Shown one piece after another: positions 45 to 5,084 of a stretch of DNA of 7,777 bases; the first letter of the stretch is position 1; each line of letters opens with the position of its first letter. The DNA is from a virus (taxonomy: Duplodnaviria > Heunggongvirae > Uroviricota > Caudoviricetes), in the IMG/VR virus record IMGVR_UViG_2667527998_000003, positions 1 to 7,777 of that record, one strand, 5' to 3'. The position numbers and the translations under genes are program-made. The notes under the pieces are model-generated. The model had not been told where the DNA came from, ran no database searches, and worked only from the letters and a program-made list of their open reading frames with translations.

Positions 45-239
45 TCAGGCTACCTCACCCGTCCCGGATACCGAGAACGTTTCGTCCAGCAACTGGAGAG
101 AGTTCGACGGTGGCATCATTGCCCATGCCGGAGGCGCTGGAGGTTTCGGCTGAGGATGGCACAGGGCATTTTCCTTTGACGAGCACCCGACCACCATTAT
201 CAAGCTTGCGCCGAAGAGCATCATTTTCAGCTTTCGCAT
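45..239 (-). CDS. Rz1: Rz1-like o-spanin (outer-membrane lipoprotein), embedded in the +1 frame of Rz and extending about 10 nt past the Rz stop
   Basis: 64-aa translation [21 protein letters not shown]... has a lipoprotein signal with lipobox Cys near residue 19 and a proline-rich mature part ([11 protein letters not shown]), resembling lambda Rz1 as I remember it. ATG at 239..237 is preceded by an AAGGAG Shine-Dalgarno about 8 nt upstream. Confidence 0.85.
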
Positions 240-459
240 CAGCTAACTCCTTCGTGTATTTAGCATCGAGTGCATCAGCATCACGCTGGCGCTGCTGCAT
301 GTCAGTAATGGTTGCGTTCGCCAGCTTCAGTTCTCCGGCGTTTTTGTCGCGCTGCTCTTTGTAGGTAATGGCGTTATCACGGTAATGATTAACAGCCCAT
401 GACAGGCAGACGATGATGCAGATAACCAGAGCGGAGATAATCGCGGTGACTCTGCTCAT
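55..459 (-). CDS. Rz: Rz-like i-spanin (inner-membrane spanin subunit)
   Basis: From ATG 459..457 the protein begins [34 protein letters not shown]..., which matches the lambda Rz N-terminus as I recall it, with an N-terminal TM segment and coiled-coil middle. The start overlaps the endolysin stop (ATGA) and a GGGGGA RBS lies upstream. The track ORF start at 474 is a TTG and less likely. Confidence 0.85.
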
Positions 460-989
460 TGATCTATCCCCCAACAGGCTAATGCGCTTTCCTGGTCACG
501 ACGAATAACCTGTCCATAGCAGTTATTTGAACGTATGCGGCAATCGCGCCCAACATCTTTTATCCACCAGCGAATCGCCTCGCATGCGCCCTTACGATCA
601 CCGGCATTCAGCCGCTTATAAAACGTCGACGGGAAACACTTACCGGGGCCAATGTTATAGGGGCAAAATGACGCTATACCCGCTTTCTGGGGTTCGGTCA
701 GAGGTACTTTAATATTGCGCTCCACCCATGCCAGCGCCTTATCACGTTCAATAGCGTTAACCTGGTCACATTTTTCCTTCGACAGCTTCATTCCCGGTAT
801 GACAGGCTTACCATCCACCATTGTGGCACCACGACAGATGGTCCATATGCCAGAACCATCACGGTATGCCGTTGTGTGATTACCCTCTTTTTCGTTCAGA
901 AACTGGTCAAGTATCTGGGGAGCAGACGCGCCTGCGGCAATCAGCGCCAGAACAGCAGCCGACAGGCCGTATTTGATTTTTGCGCTCAT
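456..989 (-). CDS. R: SAR endolysin, T4-lysozyme-like (GH24) muramidase with N-terminal signal-anchor-release domain
   Basis: 177 aa with a Gly/Ala-rich weakly hydrophobic N-terminus ([18 protein letters not shown]), a catalytic E-x8-D-x5-T triad ([16 protein letters not shown]) and a C-terminal CWG motif, resembling phage-21-type R21/RrrD endolysins. It sits between the holin region and Rz. No obvious Shine-Dalgarno precedes the ATG. Confidence 0.9.
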
Positions 990-1054
990 GGATATTTATC
1001 AGGATTTATCGGCAACAAATAACGAGCCAACTTATATACGCCTTTTAAGATAAG

Positions 1055-1684
1055 TCAGCCCCGGCTGGATCCAGTCATCAGGCTCTTTCTTAAAGGGGGA
1101 GTATTGAAATCACGAAGAAGAGCCTCCCGCACCGCAGCATCCATGTCTGCACCACTGGCAAGTGCTTCAATCTCTGCCGCCACCTGCAAATACCCCATGC
1201 AACGGCCAATGCGTTTCATAACTCTGGTGTTTTCGTCTTTCAGGCATCTGATAGCGAGATTAATAATTTTCAGGCAGTGATGATGCGATGCCCGGACAGG
1301 TTTTCCGTTCTCATAAACGACGAACTCACCCTCTTCACAGGAAACCCTGAAAGGCCGATGGGGTTCCTGGTCTTTATCCGGTGCAGACGCAATAAAATCA
1401 CTTTTATGCTCTTCCTCTCCGGCACTGTTAACCGTAATGACGTACTCAGGCCGCAGGTAAGCCGCCTCTTTTTCTGACAATGCGGCCGGTAAAAACTTTT
1501 CCTGCAAAAACTTCATAAAAGTCTCGTGAGCGACTTTGTGGCAGTAATCGTAAATCGCCGCATAATGCTCATCGCGGCGTTTGTTTTCATCTTCAGAACT
1601 CACCAACGCCGACAATTTTTTATTAAGCTCAGTGATTTCATTTTCCAGGTGATTGAATCGCTGATTCATTTCTTCATGCTTCAT
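1055..1684 (-). CDS. hypothetical 209-aa soluble protein inserted between pinholin and endolysin; function unknown
   Basis: Intact ORF whose ATG (1684..1682) lies 3 nt after the holin stop and is preceded by a GGGGAGAG RBS. The N-terminus is a predicted coiled coil (MKHEEMNQRFNHLENEITELNKKLSAL); there is no signal peptide, no TM segment and no motif I recognise. Confidence 0.6.
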   Translation of the reverse strand: MKHEEMNQRFNHLENEITELNKKLSALVSSEDENKRRDEHYAAIYDYCHKVAHETFMKFLQEKFLPAALSEKEAAYLRPEYVITVNSAGEEEHKSDFIASAPDKDQEPHRPFRVSCEEGEFVVYENGKPVRASHHHCLKIINLAIRCLKDENTRVMKRIGRCMGYLQVAAEIEALASGADMDAAVREALLRDFNTPPLRKSLMTGSSRG

Positions 1685-1687
1685 TAT

Positions 1688-1873
1688 TTACTCTCCCCGT
1701 GCAGCCTTACGCTTGTCTTCTCTTATTTTGAAATACAGATTCGTCAGATAAGTCAGAAGCCCCAGAAGCAGACTTCCCAGCACACCAATCGCAGCCCACT
1801 GTGATGGCCTGACCTGATCCAACCACTGCAAAAACCAGTAGCCGGCACTGCCGGCGGAGGTGCCGTAGGCAAT
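1688..1873 (-). CDS. S: class II pinholin, phage-21 S21-like, 5'-truncated by the N-run (start codon not present)
   Basis: My own translation of the minus strand gives [61 protein letters not shown] followed by TAA at 1690..1688, near-identical to the S21 pinholin sequence as I remember it. About 7-10 N-terminal codons are lost in the N-run at 1874-1883. It is absent from the ORF track because it has no start codon. Confidence 0.8.
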
Positions 1874-1883
1874 NNNNNNNNNN
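1874..1883. other. run of 10 N (assembly gap or masked bases) interrupting the holin 5' end
   Basis: Literal n characters in the sequence; the flanking sequence on the high-coordinate side does not encode the expected holin N-terminus. Confidence 0.95.
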
Positions 1884-2383: not shown

Positions 2384-2458
<75 letters not shown>

Positions 2459-2461
2459 ATA

Positions 2462-2537
<76 letters not shown>

Positions 2538-2539
2538 AC

Positions 2540-2616
2540 TGGACCGCCACCGGGGACTCGAACCTCGCACACTCAACTTAAAGGGTTGACGCTCTTTCCT
2601 GATGAGCTAGTGGCGG
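2540..2616 (-). tRNA. atypical tRNA-like gene; anticodon loop reads UUU but with C at position 33 and one T-stem mismatch; possibly a degenerate or variant phage tRNA
   Basis: Reverse complement CCGCCACTAGCTCATCAGGAAAGAGCGTCAACCCTTTAAGTTGAGTGTGCGAGGTTCGAGTCCCCGGTGGCGGTCCA has a perfect 7-bp acceptor stem (CCGCCAC/GTGGCGG), TTCGAGT T-loop, anticodon stem TCAAC/GTTGA, loop CCTTTAA and encoded CCA. The D-loop is non-canonical and the T-stem has an A-C mismatch. Confidence 0.5.
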
Positions 2617-2617
2617 T

Positions 2618-2693
2618 TGGTGGCCCTTGCTGGATTTGAACCAGCGACCTGGCGATTATGAGTCGCTCGCTCTCACCACTGAGCTAAAGGGCC
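2618..2693 (-). tRNA. tRNA with CAU anticodon, most similar to tRNA-Ile2 (lysidine type, ileX/ileZ-like); elongator Met not excluded
   Basis: Reverse complement GGCCCTTTAGCTCAGTGGTGAGAGCGAGCGACTCATAATCGCCAGGTCGCTGGTTCAAATCCAGCAAGGGCCACCA has perfect acceptor and T stems and anticodon loop CTCATAA. It is close to the E. coli ileX sequence as I remember it. Phage ileZ genes occupy this position downstream of Q. Confidence 0.8.
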
Positions 2694-2702
2694 GGGCGCA
2701 GG

Positions 2703-2731
2703 ATAATAACGTTACGAAATCAATGTTGCAA
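2703..2731 (-). promoter_or_regulatory. sigma70-type promoter for the tRNA cluster
   Basis: On the minus strand: -35 TTGCAA (2731..2726), 17-bp spacer, -10 TATTAT (2708..2703), then GC-rich discriminator CCTGCGCCC running into the tRNA 5' end at 2693, as is typical of stable-RNA promoters. Confidence 0.5.
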
Positions 2732-2795
2732 GCATTCAAAAATCACCCTTATCTCCTCCACCAGCGCATTCACCATGTCTATCCGAGATAAGTGG

Positions 2796-2828
2796 CACAA
2801 AAAACCCGCTTGTGGGCGGGTTTTGTTT
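2796..2828. terminator. intrinsic terminator hairpin with U-tracts on both sides; tR'-like for the minus-strand late leader
   Basis: Stem AAAACCCGC (2801-2809) pairs with GCGGGTTTT (2816-2824) around a 6-nt loop. The minus strand reads GCGGGTTTTTTGTG after the stem and the plus strand reads TTTTGTTTG. It is near-identical in architecture to the hairpin at 4398-4424. Confidence 0.65.
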
Positions 2829-2874
2829 GCTTTTGCCATCACGTACAAAATCGGCAAAGTATCAGATTTGCATG

Positions 2875-2903
2875 AATATATGCCTTTCAATCTACTTTTG
2901 CAA
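2875..2903 (-). promoter_or_regulatory. candidate late promoter (pR'-like) overlapping the 3' end of the 229-aa gene
   Basis: Minus strand: -35 TTGCAA (2903..2898), 17-bp spacer, -10 TATATT (2880..2875), with an A-tract upstream. The predicted start near 2868 gives a 45-65-nt leader ending at the 2801-2824 terminator, the classic pR'-tR' arrangement. A -10-like GATACT in the early transcribed region could be a pause element. Confidence 0.45.
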
Positions 2904-3575
2904 CACTTTGCTTTGAAAATGCCGTCTTTTTTTTGAACGTGTTCTCATTACAAACAATAAAGCCTCACTATCCAGTCGGTGAAAAATGTGTTTCATTGCA
3001 ACCCAGTGACGAGTAAATGTTTTGGACCAGTTTTTAGTTGTCACTCCCGCCAGTAATGCCAGCTCCTGGTATTCATAACCTTCCCCACCAAAAAGTTCTG
3101 CTTTTACTGCCTGCGCCGCCAGCCAGATTAATTTTTTCAGGCGTTCCTGCGTTTTCCCTGCAATTTTTCTGGTACCGGATTGAGCATTAAATTCATTCCA
3201 CGCCCACTGTGTTATCGCGATCTGATATTCCCAACAAATACTCCCGCTGTAACACCACAACAACCAGGCTTTATAGTGCTCTTCAAGAGACAGAACAGCC
3301 CGCCGCCACGATGATGTCGAAAACTCAACCGGACTGACCAGAGGAATTGACGTCCCCTTCGCCAGCGATTGCTTTCCCGGGATTGGTGGATTATCCCGCG
3401 TTATCATTTTTCCAGTCACTTCATCGCGGTACCGGATTTTTTTACGCCTGTAACGCCCTGTATCGAACATGGCATTCTCTTGCCAGGCTTCAAGCTGACC
3501 TTTTGTTGCCCCACTCAAATCAGCGGTGGCGATAATGAGCTGCTCACGCACAAACTGTAAATACTGGTTATTCAT
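2892..3575 (-). CDS. putative late-gene antitermination protein (Q-like), 227-229 aa; assignment mainly positional
   Basis: Intact ORF directly downstream of rusA (start overlaps the RusA stop; ATG at 3575..3573, alternative GTG at 3581) and directly upstream of the promoter, terminator, tRNAs and lysis genes, which is the canonical Q position. I do not recognise the sequence itself with certainty. Confidence 0.45.
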   Translation of the reverse strand: MNNQYLQFVREQLIIATADLSGATKGQLEAWQENAMFDTGRYRRKKIRYRDEVTGKMITRDNPPIPGKQSLAKGTSIPLVSPVEFSTSSWRRAVLSLEEHYKAWLLWCYSGSICWEYQIAITQWAWNEFNAQSGTRKIAGKTQERLKKLIWLAAQAVKAELFGGEGYEYQELALLAGVTTKNWSKTFTRHWVAMKHIFHRLDSEALLFVMRTRSKKRRHFQSKVLQK

Positions 3576-3937
3576 GCGCACCCCAGTTCTGTGATTTTTA
3601 TCCCCAGCCGCCCACCAGGAACGAGCTGACCGCGCACAATATTGATTTCATCAAACTGCTCGTCGTCTATAAGTAGTCCAGCATGCGTCAGCGCATCCAG
3701 CGGTGCCTTCAGGATATTGTCCAGGTCACGACGGCGCTTATCCGGTGGCTCTGCAATAATCTTTATCGCCAGCCTTCCGGACAGGTTTAATTTCAGTCGC
3801 TGCTGGCGAACAATTAGCGCCACATCACGGCGATAACGCTCACCGGCTTTTGATACAAAATATGTGCTGCCACGACGTCGCCAGTAGGTGTTCACCGTTG
3901 GCGGGTAAGGCAAAACAAATTCTATGCGTTCGGTCAT
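3572..3937 (-). CDS. rusA: RusA-family Holliday junction resolvase
   Basis: 121 aa MTERIEFVLPYPPTVNTYWRRRG...PPDKRRRDLDNILKAPLDALTHAGLLIDDEQ... aligns by eye with E. coli RusA (conserved DRRRRDLDN and DALT.AG..DD.Q blocks). Typical nin-region location. Confidence 0.85.
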   Translation of the reverse strand: MTERIEFVLPYPPTVNTYWRRRGSTYFVSKAGERYRRDVALIVRQQRLKLNLSGRLAIKIIAEPPDKRRRDLDNILKAPLDALTHAGLLIDDEQFDEINIVRGQLVPGGRLGIKITELGCA

Positions 3938-4207
3938 TTATGCTTTCCACTTCAGAACACCCGAATTTCTCGCGTGCATTAAAAAACGAATCAGCAACAA
4001 CAACTGACTACCGTGTTTTTCTTCAAAATCTTTTACCCCGGCGTGTAGTTCGTTATGGCATTTACGACACAGCGGAATAACAAACAAATCGTCAGCCTTT
4101 GTTCCCATCCCTCCCAGTCCATGACCAATGATGTGGTGCGGATCATCTGCCTGATTGCCACACGTCATGCATTTCTGCGTTTTTACCCAGCGCGTGTATA
4201 CAGGCAT
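3938..4207 (-). CDS. YbcO-like (DUF1364) zinc-binding protein with HNH-type motif arrangement, putative nuclease
   Basis: From MPVYTRW the 89-aa protein carries CMTC...DPHH...GTK...LCRKCHNELH (two CxxC pairs, HH dyad, CH-N-x2-H). Its stop abuts the rusA ATG. The true start is uncertain: the frame stays open upstream to the N-run, and a GTG about 24 codons upstream with an AGGAAG RBS is an alternative. Confidence 0.6.
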   Translation of the reverse strand: MPVYTRWVKTQKCMTCGNQADDPHHIIGHGLGGMGTKADDLFVIPLCRKCHNELHAGVKDFEEKHGSQLLLLIRFLMHARNSGVLKWKA

Positions 4208-4358
4208 CTCTTCCCGTTGTGGTTTCTGGCGCTGGAGATACTGAGCCGGAGATTCCGGATCAACGGCAATGCTGACCACCGTCTCTTCCTGTGGTGGATT
4301 CTGTTGCTGGTGGGCGTGAGGCAGCGGCGCAAGATTTTTTGTGCGCTGCTTCAGTATG

Positions 4359-4368
4359 NNNNNNNNNN
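4359..4368. other. run of 10 N between the terminator after the Q gene and the nin-type genes
   Basis: Literal n characters. Confidence 0.95.
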
Positions 4369-4510: not shown

Positions 4511-4891
4511 TCAGGGATGTTCAATATATTTGTCCATTTCTAACCGGACACCCAACATCATCAACATTCCTTCCACCACCCCCTCGGCTTTTTGTAGCTT
4601 CTTTCCTATATAACCATCTGAGCATCCATGCTTCCGCGCCAGCGTCATGAATGTCATCCCAAACACGTAGTAGTCAACCAGCAAGTCATGTAGATCGTTG
4701 TTGTTCCGGTTAAGGCGGGCCATACACCCACATATAACCATCGCGTCATCGTCACAGCATTGCGGGCGGGATTTTACTTTTGAAGGGATTAATCCCTTAA
4801 AACCGGCAGCAATGGACGACCAGGTCACATCCTCATGATTATTAGCCACCCACGCGCCCCAGCGCTCAAGAACCTGCTGAATATCACGCAT
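4511..4891 (-). CDS. Q: antitermination protein Q, QuuD/phage-21 type (about 126 aa)
   Basis: From ATG 4891..4889 the protein [60 protein letters not shown]... is strongly similar to DLP12 QuuD as I recall it. It sits immediately after ninH with an 8-nt overlap. The track ORF start at 4927 is a TTG inside ninH. Confidence 0.8.
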
Positions 4892-5084
4892 CACTGTCTT
4901 TACCCCTGTCCCATCCACGATGAACAATCAGAACACCATCAACAATGGCGTGCCCTTTGCCCTCTTTATCTTCAGCATATTTTCTTACCGTGGCGCGATT
5001 ACAGTTCAGCATTCGTGAAACTTCGGTCATATTACCTCGTGTCTGGATAAGCAGTTCCGGTATCGTTTGAATTTTGACGCTCAT
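4884..5084 (-). CDS. ninH: NinH-like small DNA-binding protein
   Basis: 66 aa [58 protein letters not shown]... aligns along its length with lambda NinH from memory. ATG at 5084..5082 is preceded by a GGAGAG RBS. Confidence 0.85.

What the first reader, a model, noticed from the sequence alone, without database searches (positions are those of the whole stretch)
1055..1684. Unknown 209-aa gene wedged between pinholin and SAR endolysin
In phage-21-type lysis cassettes the pinholin gene is normally followed directly by the SAR endolysin gene. Here an intact 209-aa ORF sits between them, translationally coupled to the holin (3-nt gap, strong RBS inside the holin 3' end) and followed by a 65-nt spacer before an endolysin with no Shine-Dalgarno. 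The protein is soluble with an N-terminal coiled coil and no motif I can place. Anything encoded here is expressed exactly when the cell is committed to lysis, so it could be a lysis-timing regulator, a superinfection-exclusion or abortive-infection factor, or an anti-defence moron.
Basis: partly seen in the sequence, partly recalled or inferred. Interest (0 to 1): 0.62.

Follow-up and report, generated by a model that had tools for sequence, protein, structure and literature searches.

The report
Frameshifted accessory gene in lysis cassette
The ORF is a real gene, but it is the usual and still uncharacterised passenger that many E. coli/Shigella lambdoid prophages carry between holin and endolysin, here in a short form that has lost its conserved tail to a one-base deletion.

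Summary
The 209-aa ORF exists on the minus strand at 1684->1055. The 3-nt gap after a phage-21-type holin, the SD inside the holin 3' end, the 65-nt spacer and the SD-less SAR endolysin are all as described.

It is not an unusual insertion. It belongs to PHROG 1085 (function unknown). NCBI names the long members of this family "YdfR family protein". The layout is an optional N-terminal DUF1327/YdfR domain, an optional coiled coil and a conserved C-module.

- In 80 of 80 IMG/VR loci that carry the C-module, the gene lies between this holin and this endolysin.
- In 47 of 47 close holin relatives that have this endolysin, a YdfR-type gene lies in between.
- 933W-type phages have S directly followed by R.
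- Salmonella relatives sit upstream of the holin.

The window copy lacks the YdfR domain. A 1-nt deletion (CCACCC->CCCCC, 1095-1099) replaces the near-invariant C-terminal 20 residues. The lost tail still reads intact in the -1 frame down to 1032. The exact protein is on at least 1000 mostly Shigella flexneri contigs.

No family, structure or defence-system match gives a function. AlphaFold confidence was too low to use. My best reading is an accessory late-operon cytoplasmic protein, probably lysis-associated, that is attenuated here. Interest is modest.

The parts
1055..1684 (-). The 209-aa ORF ('X'). It is the short architecture (coiled coil plus C-module) of the PHROG 1085 / long 'YdfR family' proteins, and it has no DUF1327 domain.
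   Evidence: ORF list. phrog_1085 E 1.2e-73, matching profile positions 117-288 of 296. Homologues of 185-333 aa, the long ones carrying PF07041. Alignment A1. The exact sequence is on at least 1000 contigs, named Shigella flexneri 'bacteriophage protein' or hypothetical.
1622..1681 (-). Short N-terminal leucine-zipper-like coiled coil (about residues 2-21 and onward; a/d positions F10 L13 I17 L20 L24 L27).
   Evidence: Sequence read directly. AlphaFold helix 3-28 with pLDDT 73-81. The same module recurs with other N-termini (P0133 and phrog_2091/36381/15975).
1091..1099 (-). Frameshift site. The run C5 (1099-1095) stands where intact alleles have CCACCC, a 1-nt deletion. The deletion incidentally creates a C_CCT_TTA heptamer (1097-1091).
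   Evidence: tblastn of an intact C-module gives two HSPs in two frames: 1387-1085 and 1109-1035.
1032..1094 (-). Out-of-frame remnant of the ancestral C-terminal tail, FKKEPDDWIQPGLTYLKRRI plus TAA. It has no further damage.
   Evidence: Three-frame translation. It is identical to the tail of P0004. Tail residues P197 K199 W205 P208 Y212 are invariant across the E. coli and Salmonella clades.
1691..1698 (-). Shine-Dalgarno GGGGAGAG inside the holin 3' end. It serves X here and serves R in 933W-type cassettes.
   Evidence: Junction comparison of the window, 933W, YYZ-2008 and Stx2_12E129.
1688..1873 (-). Phage-21-type class II holin (pinholin), 3' 61 codons. The start is lost in the N run 1874-1883.
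   Evidence: PF04971 E 1.7e-21. 98% identity to residues 11-71 of the L001 holin MKSMDK.... The N run replaces about 40 nt.
990..1054 (-). 65-nt spacer before the endolysin. It would be 42 nt without the frameshift. It is AU-rich with no SD, and the last roughly 25 nt are conserved among cassettes that carry X.
   Evidence: (36- or 42-nt spacers in most loci).
456..989 (-). R21-like SAR endolysin, 177 aa.
   Evidence: PF00959 E 5e-24 and phrog_7. The SAR-like N-terminus and E-x8-D-x5-T triad were read from the translation.
45..474 (-). Rz / Rz1 spanin pair (Rz 474->55; embedded Rz1 239->45).
   Evidence: PF03245 E 2e-23 and phrog_13.

Best explanation
The ORF is a genuine protein-coding gene. 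It belongs to a recurrent, catalogued but functionally uncharacterised family of lambdoid-prophage proteins: PHROG 1085, whose long members NCBI labels 'YdfR family protein'.

The family is modular. It has an optional N-terminal DUF1327/YdfR domain, an optional short coiled coil, and a conserved C-module. The C-module is a beta-hairpin, then helices carrying the motif GRCMGYLQVAAEIEA, then the tail NPPFKxxPxxWxxPGxxYLKxR. In E. coli and Shigella the gene sits between the phage-21-type holin and the R21-like SAR endolysin. In Salmonella it sits just upstream of the holin.

The window carries the short form, coiled coil plus C-module. A 1-nt deletion has replaced the most conserved 20 C-terminal residues. 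I therefore read it as an attenuated or inactive allele, fixed in a Shigella flexneri / E. coli prophage lineage.

Expression is shown by sequence for the signals and inferred for function. The gene has no promoter of its own. It is read from the Q-dependent late transcript and starts 3 nt after the holin stop, using the SD that serves the endolysin in 933W-type cassettes. The endolysin is thereby left with an SD-less start 36-65 nt downstream.

Function is inferred with low confidence. I take it to be a non-essential, soluble, probably oligomeric cytoplasmic protein made together with the holin. It would tune the lysis programme, either its timing or the endolysin dosage, rather than being a structural lysis component.
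For: Identity:
- phrog_1085 E 1.2e-73.
- 132 homologues, the long ones fused to PF07041.
- A Salmonella clade retains the C-module and tail.

Synteny:
- In 80 of 80 C-module loci the gene follows the holin at a 0-4 nt gap in nearly all, and the R21-like lysozyme follows at 36 or 42 nt, or 452 nt in a subset.
- 47 of 47 holin-anchored loci with this lysozyme have a YdfR-type gene in between.
- In Salmonella the order is X, then holin, then lysozyme.

Real gene:
- C-module dN/dS is 0.21, against 0.083 for S and 0.062 for R, at similar dS.

Non-essential:
- 933W-type phages have S and R separated by 4 nt with no X.
- Many prophages keep only truncated or pseudogenised copies.

Frameshift:
-.
- The same allele occurs in independent complete genomes and on at least 1000 contigs.

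Expression mode:
- The SD is shared with 933W R, and R lacks an SD in cassettes that carry X.
- No sigma-70-like promoter or terminator lies on the coding strand within or upstream of X.
- Base composition matches the flanks.

Solubility and coiled coil.
Against: No direct evidence links the family to lysis beyond gene position.
- The Q-to-lysis region is also a known cargo hot-spot. In Salmonella the neighbours are HicAB and ParE modules, so adjacency could reflect insertion preference rather than function.
- The only experimental data for the family concern the DUF1327 domain of K-12 YdfR, which binds the RNase E N-terminal half and may bind RNA (PMC13232886). The window protein lacks that domain.
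- AlphaFold models were poor (pLDDT 48.8 and 47.4) and Foldseek found nothing significant, so there is no structural support for any mechanism.
- The frameshifted allele is widespread and otherwise undamaged. That is compatible with residual function.
Confidence: 0.55

Rival explanations
1. The window allele is fully functional. Either the short protein without the conserved tail is sufficient, or a fraction of ribosomes slips -1 at the C_CCU_UUA heptamer created by the deletion. Slippage would produce a full-length protein with the ancestral tail, changed only at F198L.
For: The ORF is otherwise undamaged, and the out-of-frame tail is 100% intact down to its TAA. The allele is fixed on at least 1000 contigs and in several complete genomes. 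The heptamer fits the X_XXY_YYZ rule, and a -1 slip enters exactly the tail frame (sequence read directly).
Against: The tail residues are invariant across two genera, which argues that they matter. There is no stimulatory structure downstream (MFE z-score -0.23). Intact alleles need no slippage. S. flexneri is, from general knowledge, a lineage rich in recent pseudogenes, so wide distribution may only reflect clonal inheritance.
Confidence: 0.15
2. The family is cargo (a defence, superinfection-exclusion or anti-defence factor) that merely uses the Q-to-lysis hot-spot. It has nothing to do with lysis.
For: - The architecture is mosaic and modular, and the protein evolves faster than S and R.
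- Salmonella members lie among toxin-antitoxin cargo, with a terminator-like hairpin after the gene.
- A strictly associated convergent partner gene Y (phrog_1853) suggests a two-gene module.
Against: - There is no PADLOC match.
- In E. coli and Shigella the gene has no promoter of its own and is coupled to the holin, so it should be silent in lysogens, where a defence function would be needed.
- Anti-defence genes are usually early genes (general knowledge).
- The window lacks Y.
Confidence: 0.15
3. The family acts on host RNA metabolism, modulating RNase E or the degradosome late in infection. The C-module would be the effector or oligomerisation part.
For: K-12 YdfR (DUF1327 only) binds the RNase E N-terminal half in two-hybrid and pull-down assays and co-purifies RNA (PMC13232886). 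Long family members fuse that domain to the module present in the window.
Against: The window protein has no DUF1327 domain. Short forms without the domain are common, so the C-module must work without RNase E targeting. YdfR overproduction changed few transcripts.
Confidence: 0.1

Closest known systems
Long 'YdfR family proteins' / PHROG 1085 of E. coli lambdoid and Stx prophages (e.g. P0004 333 aa, P0090 296 aa; Stx2 phage 86 orf5; Stx2_12E129 BCI50505)
   Same: The coiled coil and C-module are homologous (45-89% identity). The position between class II holin and R21-like lysozyme is the same, as are the start context 3-4 nt after the holin stop and the spacer to R.
   Different: The window copy has no N-terminal DUF1327 domain. 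Many 185-213-aa members share that short form. Unlike all 42 aligned members, it has lost the conserved C-terminal 20 residues by frameshift.
YdfR of the E. coli K-12 Qin prophage (103 aa, Pfam PF07041/DUF1327) and phage YYZ-2008 gp44
   Same: It occupies the same slot between the essQ-type holin and the lysozyme. It is the N-terminal module of the same composite family.
   Different: It shares no sequence with the window protein. PF07041 does not hit the window protein, and tblastn with the domain finds nothing in the window. The RNase E and RNA binding reported for YdfR (PMC13232886) therefore cannot be transferred.
933W / phage-21-type minimal cassette (S directly followed by R)
   Same: The holin and endolysin are about 82% identical at the DNA level. 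The same SD lies in the S 3' end.
   Different: There is no intervening gene, and R itself uses the S-embedded SD. This shows that X is dispensable for lysis as such.
Soluble cytoplasmic lysis regulators such as T4 RIII or P1 LydB (functional analogy only, from general knowledge)
   Same: They are small soluble proteins co-expressed with a holin that modulate lysis timing. This is the kind of role proposed here.
   Different: No sequence or structural similarity was detected. No lysis-category PHROG or Pfam family hits X. No experimental link exists.

Membership tests
PHROG 1085 (unknown function) | Significant match to the family HMM | tested here: met
   E 1.2e-73, 249 bits, protein residues 1-209 on profile positions 117-288 of 296.
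PHROG 1085 / NCBI 'YdfR family protein' (long form) | N-terminal DUF1327 (PF07041) domain | tested here: not met
   There is no PF07041 hit at E<=1 and no tblastn hit of the domain anywhere in the window. Long homologues do carry it.
PHROG 1085 / family C-module | Conserved C-terminal tail NPPFKxxPxxWxxPGxxYLKxR (P197 K199 W205 P208 Y212 invariant) | tested here: not met
   It is replaced by LRKSLMTGSSRG after a 1-nt deletion. The tail is present only in the -1 frame.
PHROG 1085 / family C-module | Core motif G-R-C-M-G-Y-L-Q-x-A-A-E-I-E and the preceding beta-hairpin / H-x-H segment | tested here: met
   Invariant columns F112 V114 K128 I145 M156 G160 R161 C162 M163 G164 Y165 L166 Q167 A169 E171 are all present in the window protein.
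Holin-adjacent late-operon gene of lambdoid prophages (family synteny) | Located next to a class II (PF04971) holin within the Q-dependent late region | tested here: met
   Window order is Q, tRNAs, S, X, R, Rz. 80 of 80 IMG/VR loci show S-X-R. Salmonella shows X-S-R.
Moron (autonomous cargo gene) | Own promoter and terminator, allowing expression in the lysogen | tested here: not met
   The consensus scan found no promoter-like site on the coding strand in 400-2400 and no terminator after X. The only hits are a +-strand promoter-like site at 1538-1566 and a hairpin inside the holin gene. A consensus scan cannot exclude weak promoters.
Known anti-phage defence systems (PADLOC-DB v2) | Match to any defence-protein HMM | tested here: not met
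   The window protein matched 0 families. Long homologues gave only one non-significant hit (E 0.018).
Known lysis regulators (antiholins, releasins, RIII/LydB-like) | Sequence or structure membership in a described lysis-regulator family; measurable effect on lysis timing | tested here: inconclusive
   There is no Pfam, PHROG 'lysis', NCBIfam or PDB match. The models were too poor for fold comparison. An effect on lysis cannot be tested with these tools.
Phage-21-type pinholin / SAR-endolysin cassette (context) | PF04971 holin with dual-start MKSM..., and a lysozyme with an N-terminal SAR segment and E-x8-D-x5-T triad | tested here: met
   PF04971 E 1.7e-21 and PF00959 E 5e-24. The holin N-terminus MKSMDK was read in the near-identical L001. 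The SAR-like [24 protein letters not shown] and the triad were read.

The most novel reading that the evidence does not exclude
The C-module family, present in about 15% of complete E. coli genomes and in many Salmonella prophages, may be a previously unrecognised class of cytoplasmic partner or regulator of pinholin / SAR-endolysin lysis. It is always holin-adjacent and is sometimes paired with a convergent partner gene Y. In some versions it would be targeted to RNase E through the fused YdfR domain. The Shigella allele would then be a natural C-tail truncation, possibly rescued at low level by -1 slippage at C_CCU_UUA, and useful for dissecting the mechanism.
Probability: 0.2. Interest if true: 0.65.

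Novelty: new member of a known kind. Interest (0 to 1): 0.33.

Why it matters
Pinholin / SAR-endolysin cassettes of lambdoid and Stx prophages are treated as S-R-Rz/Rz1 units. A large fraction in fact carry an extra late gene coupled to the holin, and nobody has tested its function. The C-module occurs in 787 of 5426 complete E. coli genomes.

If the family tunes lysis timing or endolysin dosage, it would affect burst size and, in Stx phages, toxin release. If it is cargo, it marks another hot-spot inside an operon thought to be purely lytic.

For this window the practical message is more sober. The gene is a known, catalogued hypothetical and probably a crippled allele. It is not a unique insertion.

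Tried and rejected
- **Family libraries.** Pfam, NCBIfam and PADLOC scans of the window protein and of long or distant homologues gave only sub-threshold coiled-coil noise.
- **PDB sequence profiles.** Two profiles (E. coli and Salmonella clades) gave nothing below E 0.1.
- **Structure prediction.** AlphaFold2 on the window protein with 43 sequences gave pLDDT 48.8. On the 333-aa long form it gave pLDDT 47.4, and only the DUF1327 domain was confident.
- **Fold search.** Foldseek against PDB gave no hit at E<=0.001. The afdb50 library was unavailable.
- **Exhaustive HMM search.** Against 1.84 billion representatives there were only 40 hits, all family fragments or Salmonella members.
- **Genome-contig scan.** Only 3 loci were confirmed, because confirmation used an E. 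coli sequence.
- **Literature.** DUF1327, ydfR+holin, the WP accession and phrog_1085 returned nothing on this gene apart from the RNase E interactome paper on K-12 YdfR.
- **Programmed frameshifting.** There is no downstream structure beyond shuffled controls, so I kept it only as a low-probability rival.
- **C-terminal tail as an amphipathic membrane-targeting helix.** The hydrophobic-moment comparison with the MinD and FtsA tails was ambiguous, so I make no such claim.
- **Autonomous promoter or terminator.** None was found on the coding strand.
- **Compositional anomaly.** None. GC is 0.45-0.51, like the flanks.

Full report
**1. What is in the window**

All genes of interest lie on the minus strand.
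- The order is a DnaC-like loader (7768->6821), DnaB (6824->5433), NinH, a PF06530 Q protein (4927->4511), RusA (3937->3572) and a PF06323 Q protein (3581->2892).
- Four tRNAs follow (2693->2384), then a phage-21-type holin ending at 1688 and the 209-aa ORF (1684->1055).
- Last come a lysozyme (989->456) and Rz/Rz1 (474->45).
The holin stop TAA is at 1690-1688, a 3-nt gap follows, and the ATG is at 1684. The SD GGGGAGAG is at 1698-1691.
- The ORF stop is at 1057-1055. A 65-nt AU-rich spacer without an SD precedes the endolysin ATG at 989.
- The protein is soluble (GRAVY -0.63, no TM-grade hydrophobic window). It begins with a heptad-patterned helix.
- The holin start codon cannot be read in the window, because an N run (1874-1883) replaces about 40 nt. 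It is present (MKSMDK...) in near-identical complete genomes.

**2. It is a member of a catalogued family**

- Pfam, NCBIfam and PADLOC give nothing.
- PHROG 1085 (unknown function) matches at E 1.2e-73, but only over profile positions 117-288 of 296.
- A search of 5.8 billion proteins returned 132 homologues, all from Escherichia or Shigella. Short forms are 185-217 aa. Long forms are 268-333 aa, and their extra N-terminus is Pfam PF07041 (DUF1327). NCBI calls these 'YdfR family protein'.
- The alignment shows a modular protein: [DUF1327 domain + linker], [short coiled coil + EDEKKRRDEQFAAFYDYC], [variable middle] and [C-module].
- The C-module has a beta-hairpin, an S-H-x-H segment, the invariant block G-R-C-M-G-Y-L-Q-V-A-A-E-I-E-A, and a tail F-K-K-x-P-x-x-W-x-x-P-G-L-T-Y-L-K-x-R-I.
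- An exhaustive HMM search of 1.84 billion cluster representatives found only 40 hits. These include a divergent clade that a further search showed to be Salmonella enterica prophage proteins.
- The Salmonella clade keeps the C-module. Tail residues P197, K199, W205, P208 and Y212 are invariant across both genera.

**3. The window copy is frameshifted**

- Its last 12 residues (LRKSLMTGSSRG) align with nothing. All 42 other aligned sequences carry the conserved tail.
- Translating the -1 frame from 1094 gives FKKEPDDWIQPGLTYLKRRI followed by TAA at 1034-1032. This is identical to the tail of P0004.
- Intact alleles read ...AAT ACN CCA CCC TTT AAR AA... The window reads AAT ACT CCC CC- TTT AAG AA, one base short.
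- tblastn of an intact C-module gives the classic two-frame signature: residues 1-101 at 1387-1085, and residues 94-118 at 1109-1035.
- The deletion is not an error of this assembly. It is identical in E. coli CFSAN029787, in Shigella flexneri SFBU1023 and in E. coli ECMA0423, and in five further complete genomes at 99.8% identity.
- The exact 209-aa protein is on at least 1000 contigs, mostly named Shigella flexneri.
- Without the deletion, the spacer to the endolysin would be 42 nt, one of the two family-typical values.
- The deletion happens to create a C_CCT_TTA heptamer, from which a -1 slip would enter the tail frame. No stimulatory structure follows (z = -0.23), so I treat this as a curiosity.

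**4. How unusual is a gene between S and R?**

*Holin-anchored survey.* I took the 80 IMG/VR loci whose holin is at least 89% identical to the near-identical L001 copy of the window's holin.
- 27 have a different lysozyme abutting S.
- 6 end before any lysozyme.
- 47 have the R21-like lysozyme (at least 85% identical). All 47 have an intervening gene that starts with the DUF1327 domain. Most are N-domain-only or truncated forms of 103-116 aa.

*C-module-anchored survey.* I took the best 80 of 179 IMG/VR loci.
- In 80 of 80 the gene lies downstream of the class II holin where that end of the contig is present. The gap is 0-4 nt in nearly all.
- It lies upstream of the R21-like lysozyme, with a gap of 36 or 42 nt in most and 452 nt in a subset.
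- Architectures are DUF1327+coiled coil+C-module (296/297 aa), DUF1327+C-module (268/328/329 aa), and coiled coil+C-module (185/186/213 aa, the window's type).

*Sequenced phages*.
- 933W-type Stx phages have S and R 4 nt apart with nothing between.
- YYZ-2008 and many Stx1 phages have a 114-aa 'YdfR family protein'.
- Stx2_12E129 has a 213-aa short form.

*Complete genomes.* The 3' 190 nt of the C-module occurs in 787 of 5426 complete E. coli genomes. It is often unannotated or flagged by PGAP as a YdfR-family pseudogene, as in ATCC 25922.

**5. Expression logic**

- In 933W the endolysin starts 4 nt after the S stop and uses the SD GGGGAGAG embedded in S.
- In every cassette carrying X that I examined, X starts at that same place and uses that SD. 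R is moved 36-50 nt beyond the X stop and is preceded by AU-rich sequence (...GATAAATATCC ATG) without an SD.
- No sigma-70-like promoter or terminator lies on the coding strand around X, and composition matches the flanks.
- Shown: X is positioned to be translated with, and at the level of, the holin-coupled gene.
- Inferred: R translation becomes weaker or dependent on ribosomes finishing X, and in the window the earlier stop lengthens that gap to 65 nt.

**6. Is position the function?**

- In Salmonella the homologues (216-338 aa, all 'hypothetical') lie upstream of the holin, between Q and S beside HicAB or ParE cargo. S and R overlap directly there, and a terminator-like hairpin lies between X and S.
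- The conserved feature is therefore proximity to the holin and the start of the late region, not the S-R junction. An R-dosage effect cannot be the family's primary role.
- A convergent 104-aa gene (Y, phrog_1853, no Pfam) abuts the 3' end of X in both genera: 50% identity, E 5e-36.
- In IMG/VR, 31 of 31 Y loci have the X C-module 13-18 nt from the Y stop.
- Most X genes lack Y, and so does the window.

**7. Selection**

- Pairwise Nei-Gojobori estimates across the surveyed loci give median dN/dS of 0.083 for S, 0.209 for the X C-module and 0.062 for R. dS is similar for all three (0.28-0.33).
- X is thus a translated, constrained protein, but two to three times less constrained than the essential lysis genes.
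- The frequent truncations fit this. So does the absence of X from viable phages. Together they mark it as accessory.

**8. Function**

- Nothing gives a fold or a family. PDB profile searches, AlphaFold models (pLDDT 48.8 and 47.4) and Foldseek were all uninformative.
- The only experimental data in the searchable literature concern K-12 YdfR, which is the DUF1327 domain alone. It binds the N-terminal half of RNase E in two-hybrid and pull-down assays and co-purifies RNA, with little transcriptome effect when overproduced (PMC13232886). The window protein lacks this domain.
- My committed reading is an accessory, soluble, probably oligomeric late protein that acts at or around the holin-controlled lysis step. 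I put the lysis-associated role at about 35-40%, and the identity and allele status near 90%.
- The Shigella allele is probably attenuated, because it has lost the most conserved element of the family.
- Rivals are a still-functional allele, cargo such as defence or anti-defence, and an RNA/RNase E-directed role.

**9. Verdict**

It is an uncharacterised protein in the lysis operon, but it is a routine, catalogued occupant of this site rather than an anomaly, and it is not an autonomous moron. Novelty is 'new member of a known kind'. Interest is modest (0.33). It lies in the family, which is common in E. coli, Shigella and Salmonella prophages and untested, rather than in this copy.

Noticed in passing
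window 1874-1883, 2153-2162, 4359-4368; 1946-2152 vs 2164-2370; 2711-4358: Three 10-N runs split the window into blocks. A 207-nt direct repeat (98% identical) straddles the second N run. The first N run replaces about 40 nt that include the holin start. The block 2711-4358 is absent from the closest complete genomes (L001, L083), which otherwise match at 99-100%. The window looks like scaffolded contigs, possibly from two prophages, rather than one contiguous locus.
   Followed up: partly
window 2892-3581 (-) and 4511-4927 (-): Two unrelated Q antiterminators lie in one 7.8-kb window: PF06323, 229 aa, and PF06530, 138 aa. They are separated by an N run. This is consistent with the chimeric-scaffold reading, or with a mosaic nin/Q region.
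   Followed up: partly
L168 2313-2627 (-), L174 4307-4624 (-), L176-L206: A convergent gene of about 104 aa (phrog_1853, unknown function, no Pfam) abuts the 3' end of the X gene in both E. coli and Salmonella prophages (50% identity). In IMG/VR, 31 of 31 copies lie 13-18 nt from the X stop. It may be a functional partner of the family. It is absent from the window.
   Followed up: partly
L170-L175 (Salmonella enterica contigs): Salmonella homologues of the family sit upstream of the holin, between Q and S next to HicAB or ParE/HTH modules. A terminator-like hairpin (GCCGC...GCGGC plus a T-run) lies between the gene and the holin. L174 also has a separate 80-aa ORF next to the holin that looks like a YdfR N-domain.
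   Followed up: partly
window 1091-1097 (-): The 1-nt deletion creates a C_CCT_TTA heptamer that fits the X_XXY_YYZ -1 slippery-site rule. A slip there would restore the ancestral tail frame. No downstream structure beyond shuffled controls was found.
   Followed up: yes
window 2384-2693 (-): A four-tRNA cluster lies between Q and the holin: Gly-TCC, Thr-TGT, Lys-TTT and a CAT anticodon called Met. The corresponding cluster in L001 is 96% identical and is annotated Ile, Arg, Thr, Gly. At least one anticodon therefore seems to differ between the near-identical prophages.
   Followed up: no
L001 8834-9368: In the closest complete genome, a ParD-like / RelE-ParE toxin-antitoxin pair and a KilA-N protein follow Rz, downstream of the lysis cassette. 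This is beyond the window's end.
   Followed up: no
E. coli complete genomes, e.g. L169 799-1725: Many genomes keep only a truncated N-terminal 'YdfR family' pseudogene plus an unannotated 3' remnant of the C-module between holin and lysozyme. The locus decays often.
   Followed up: partly
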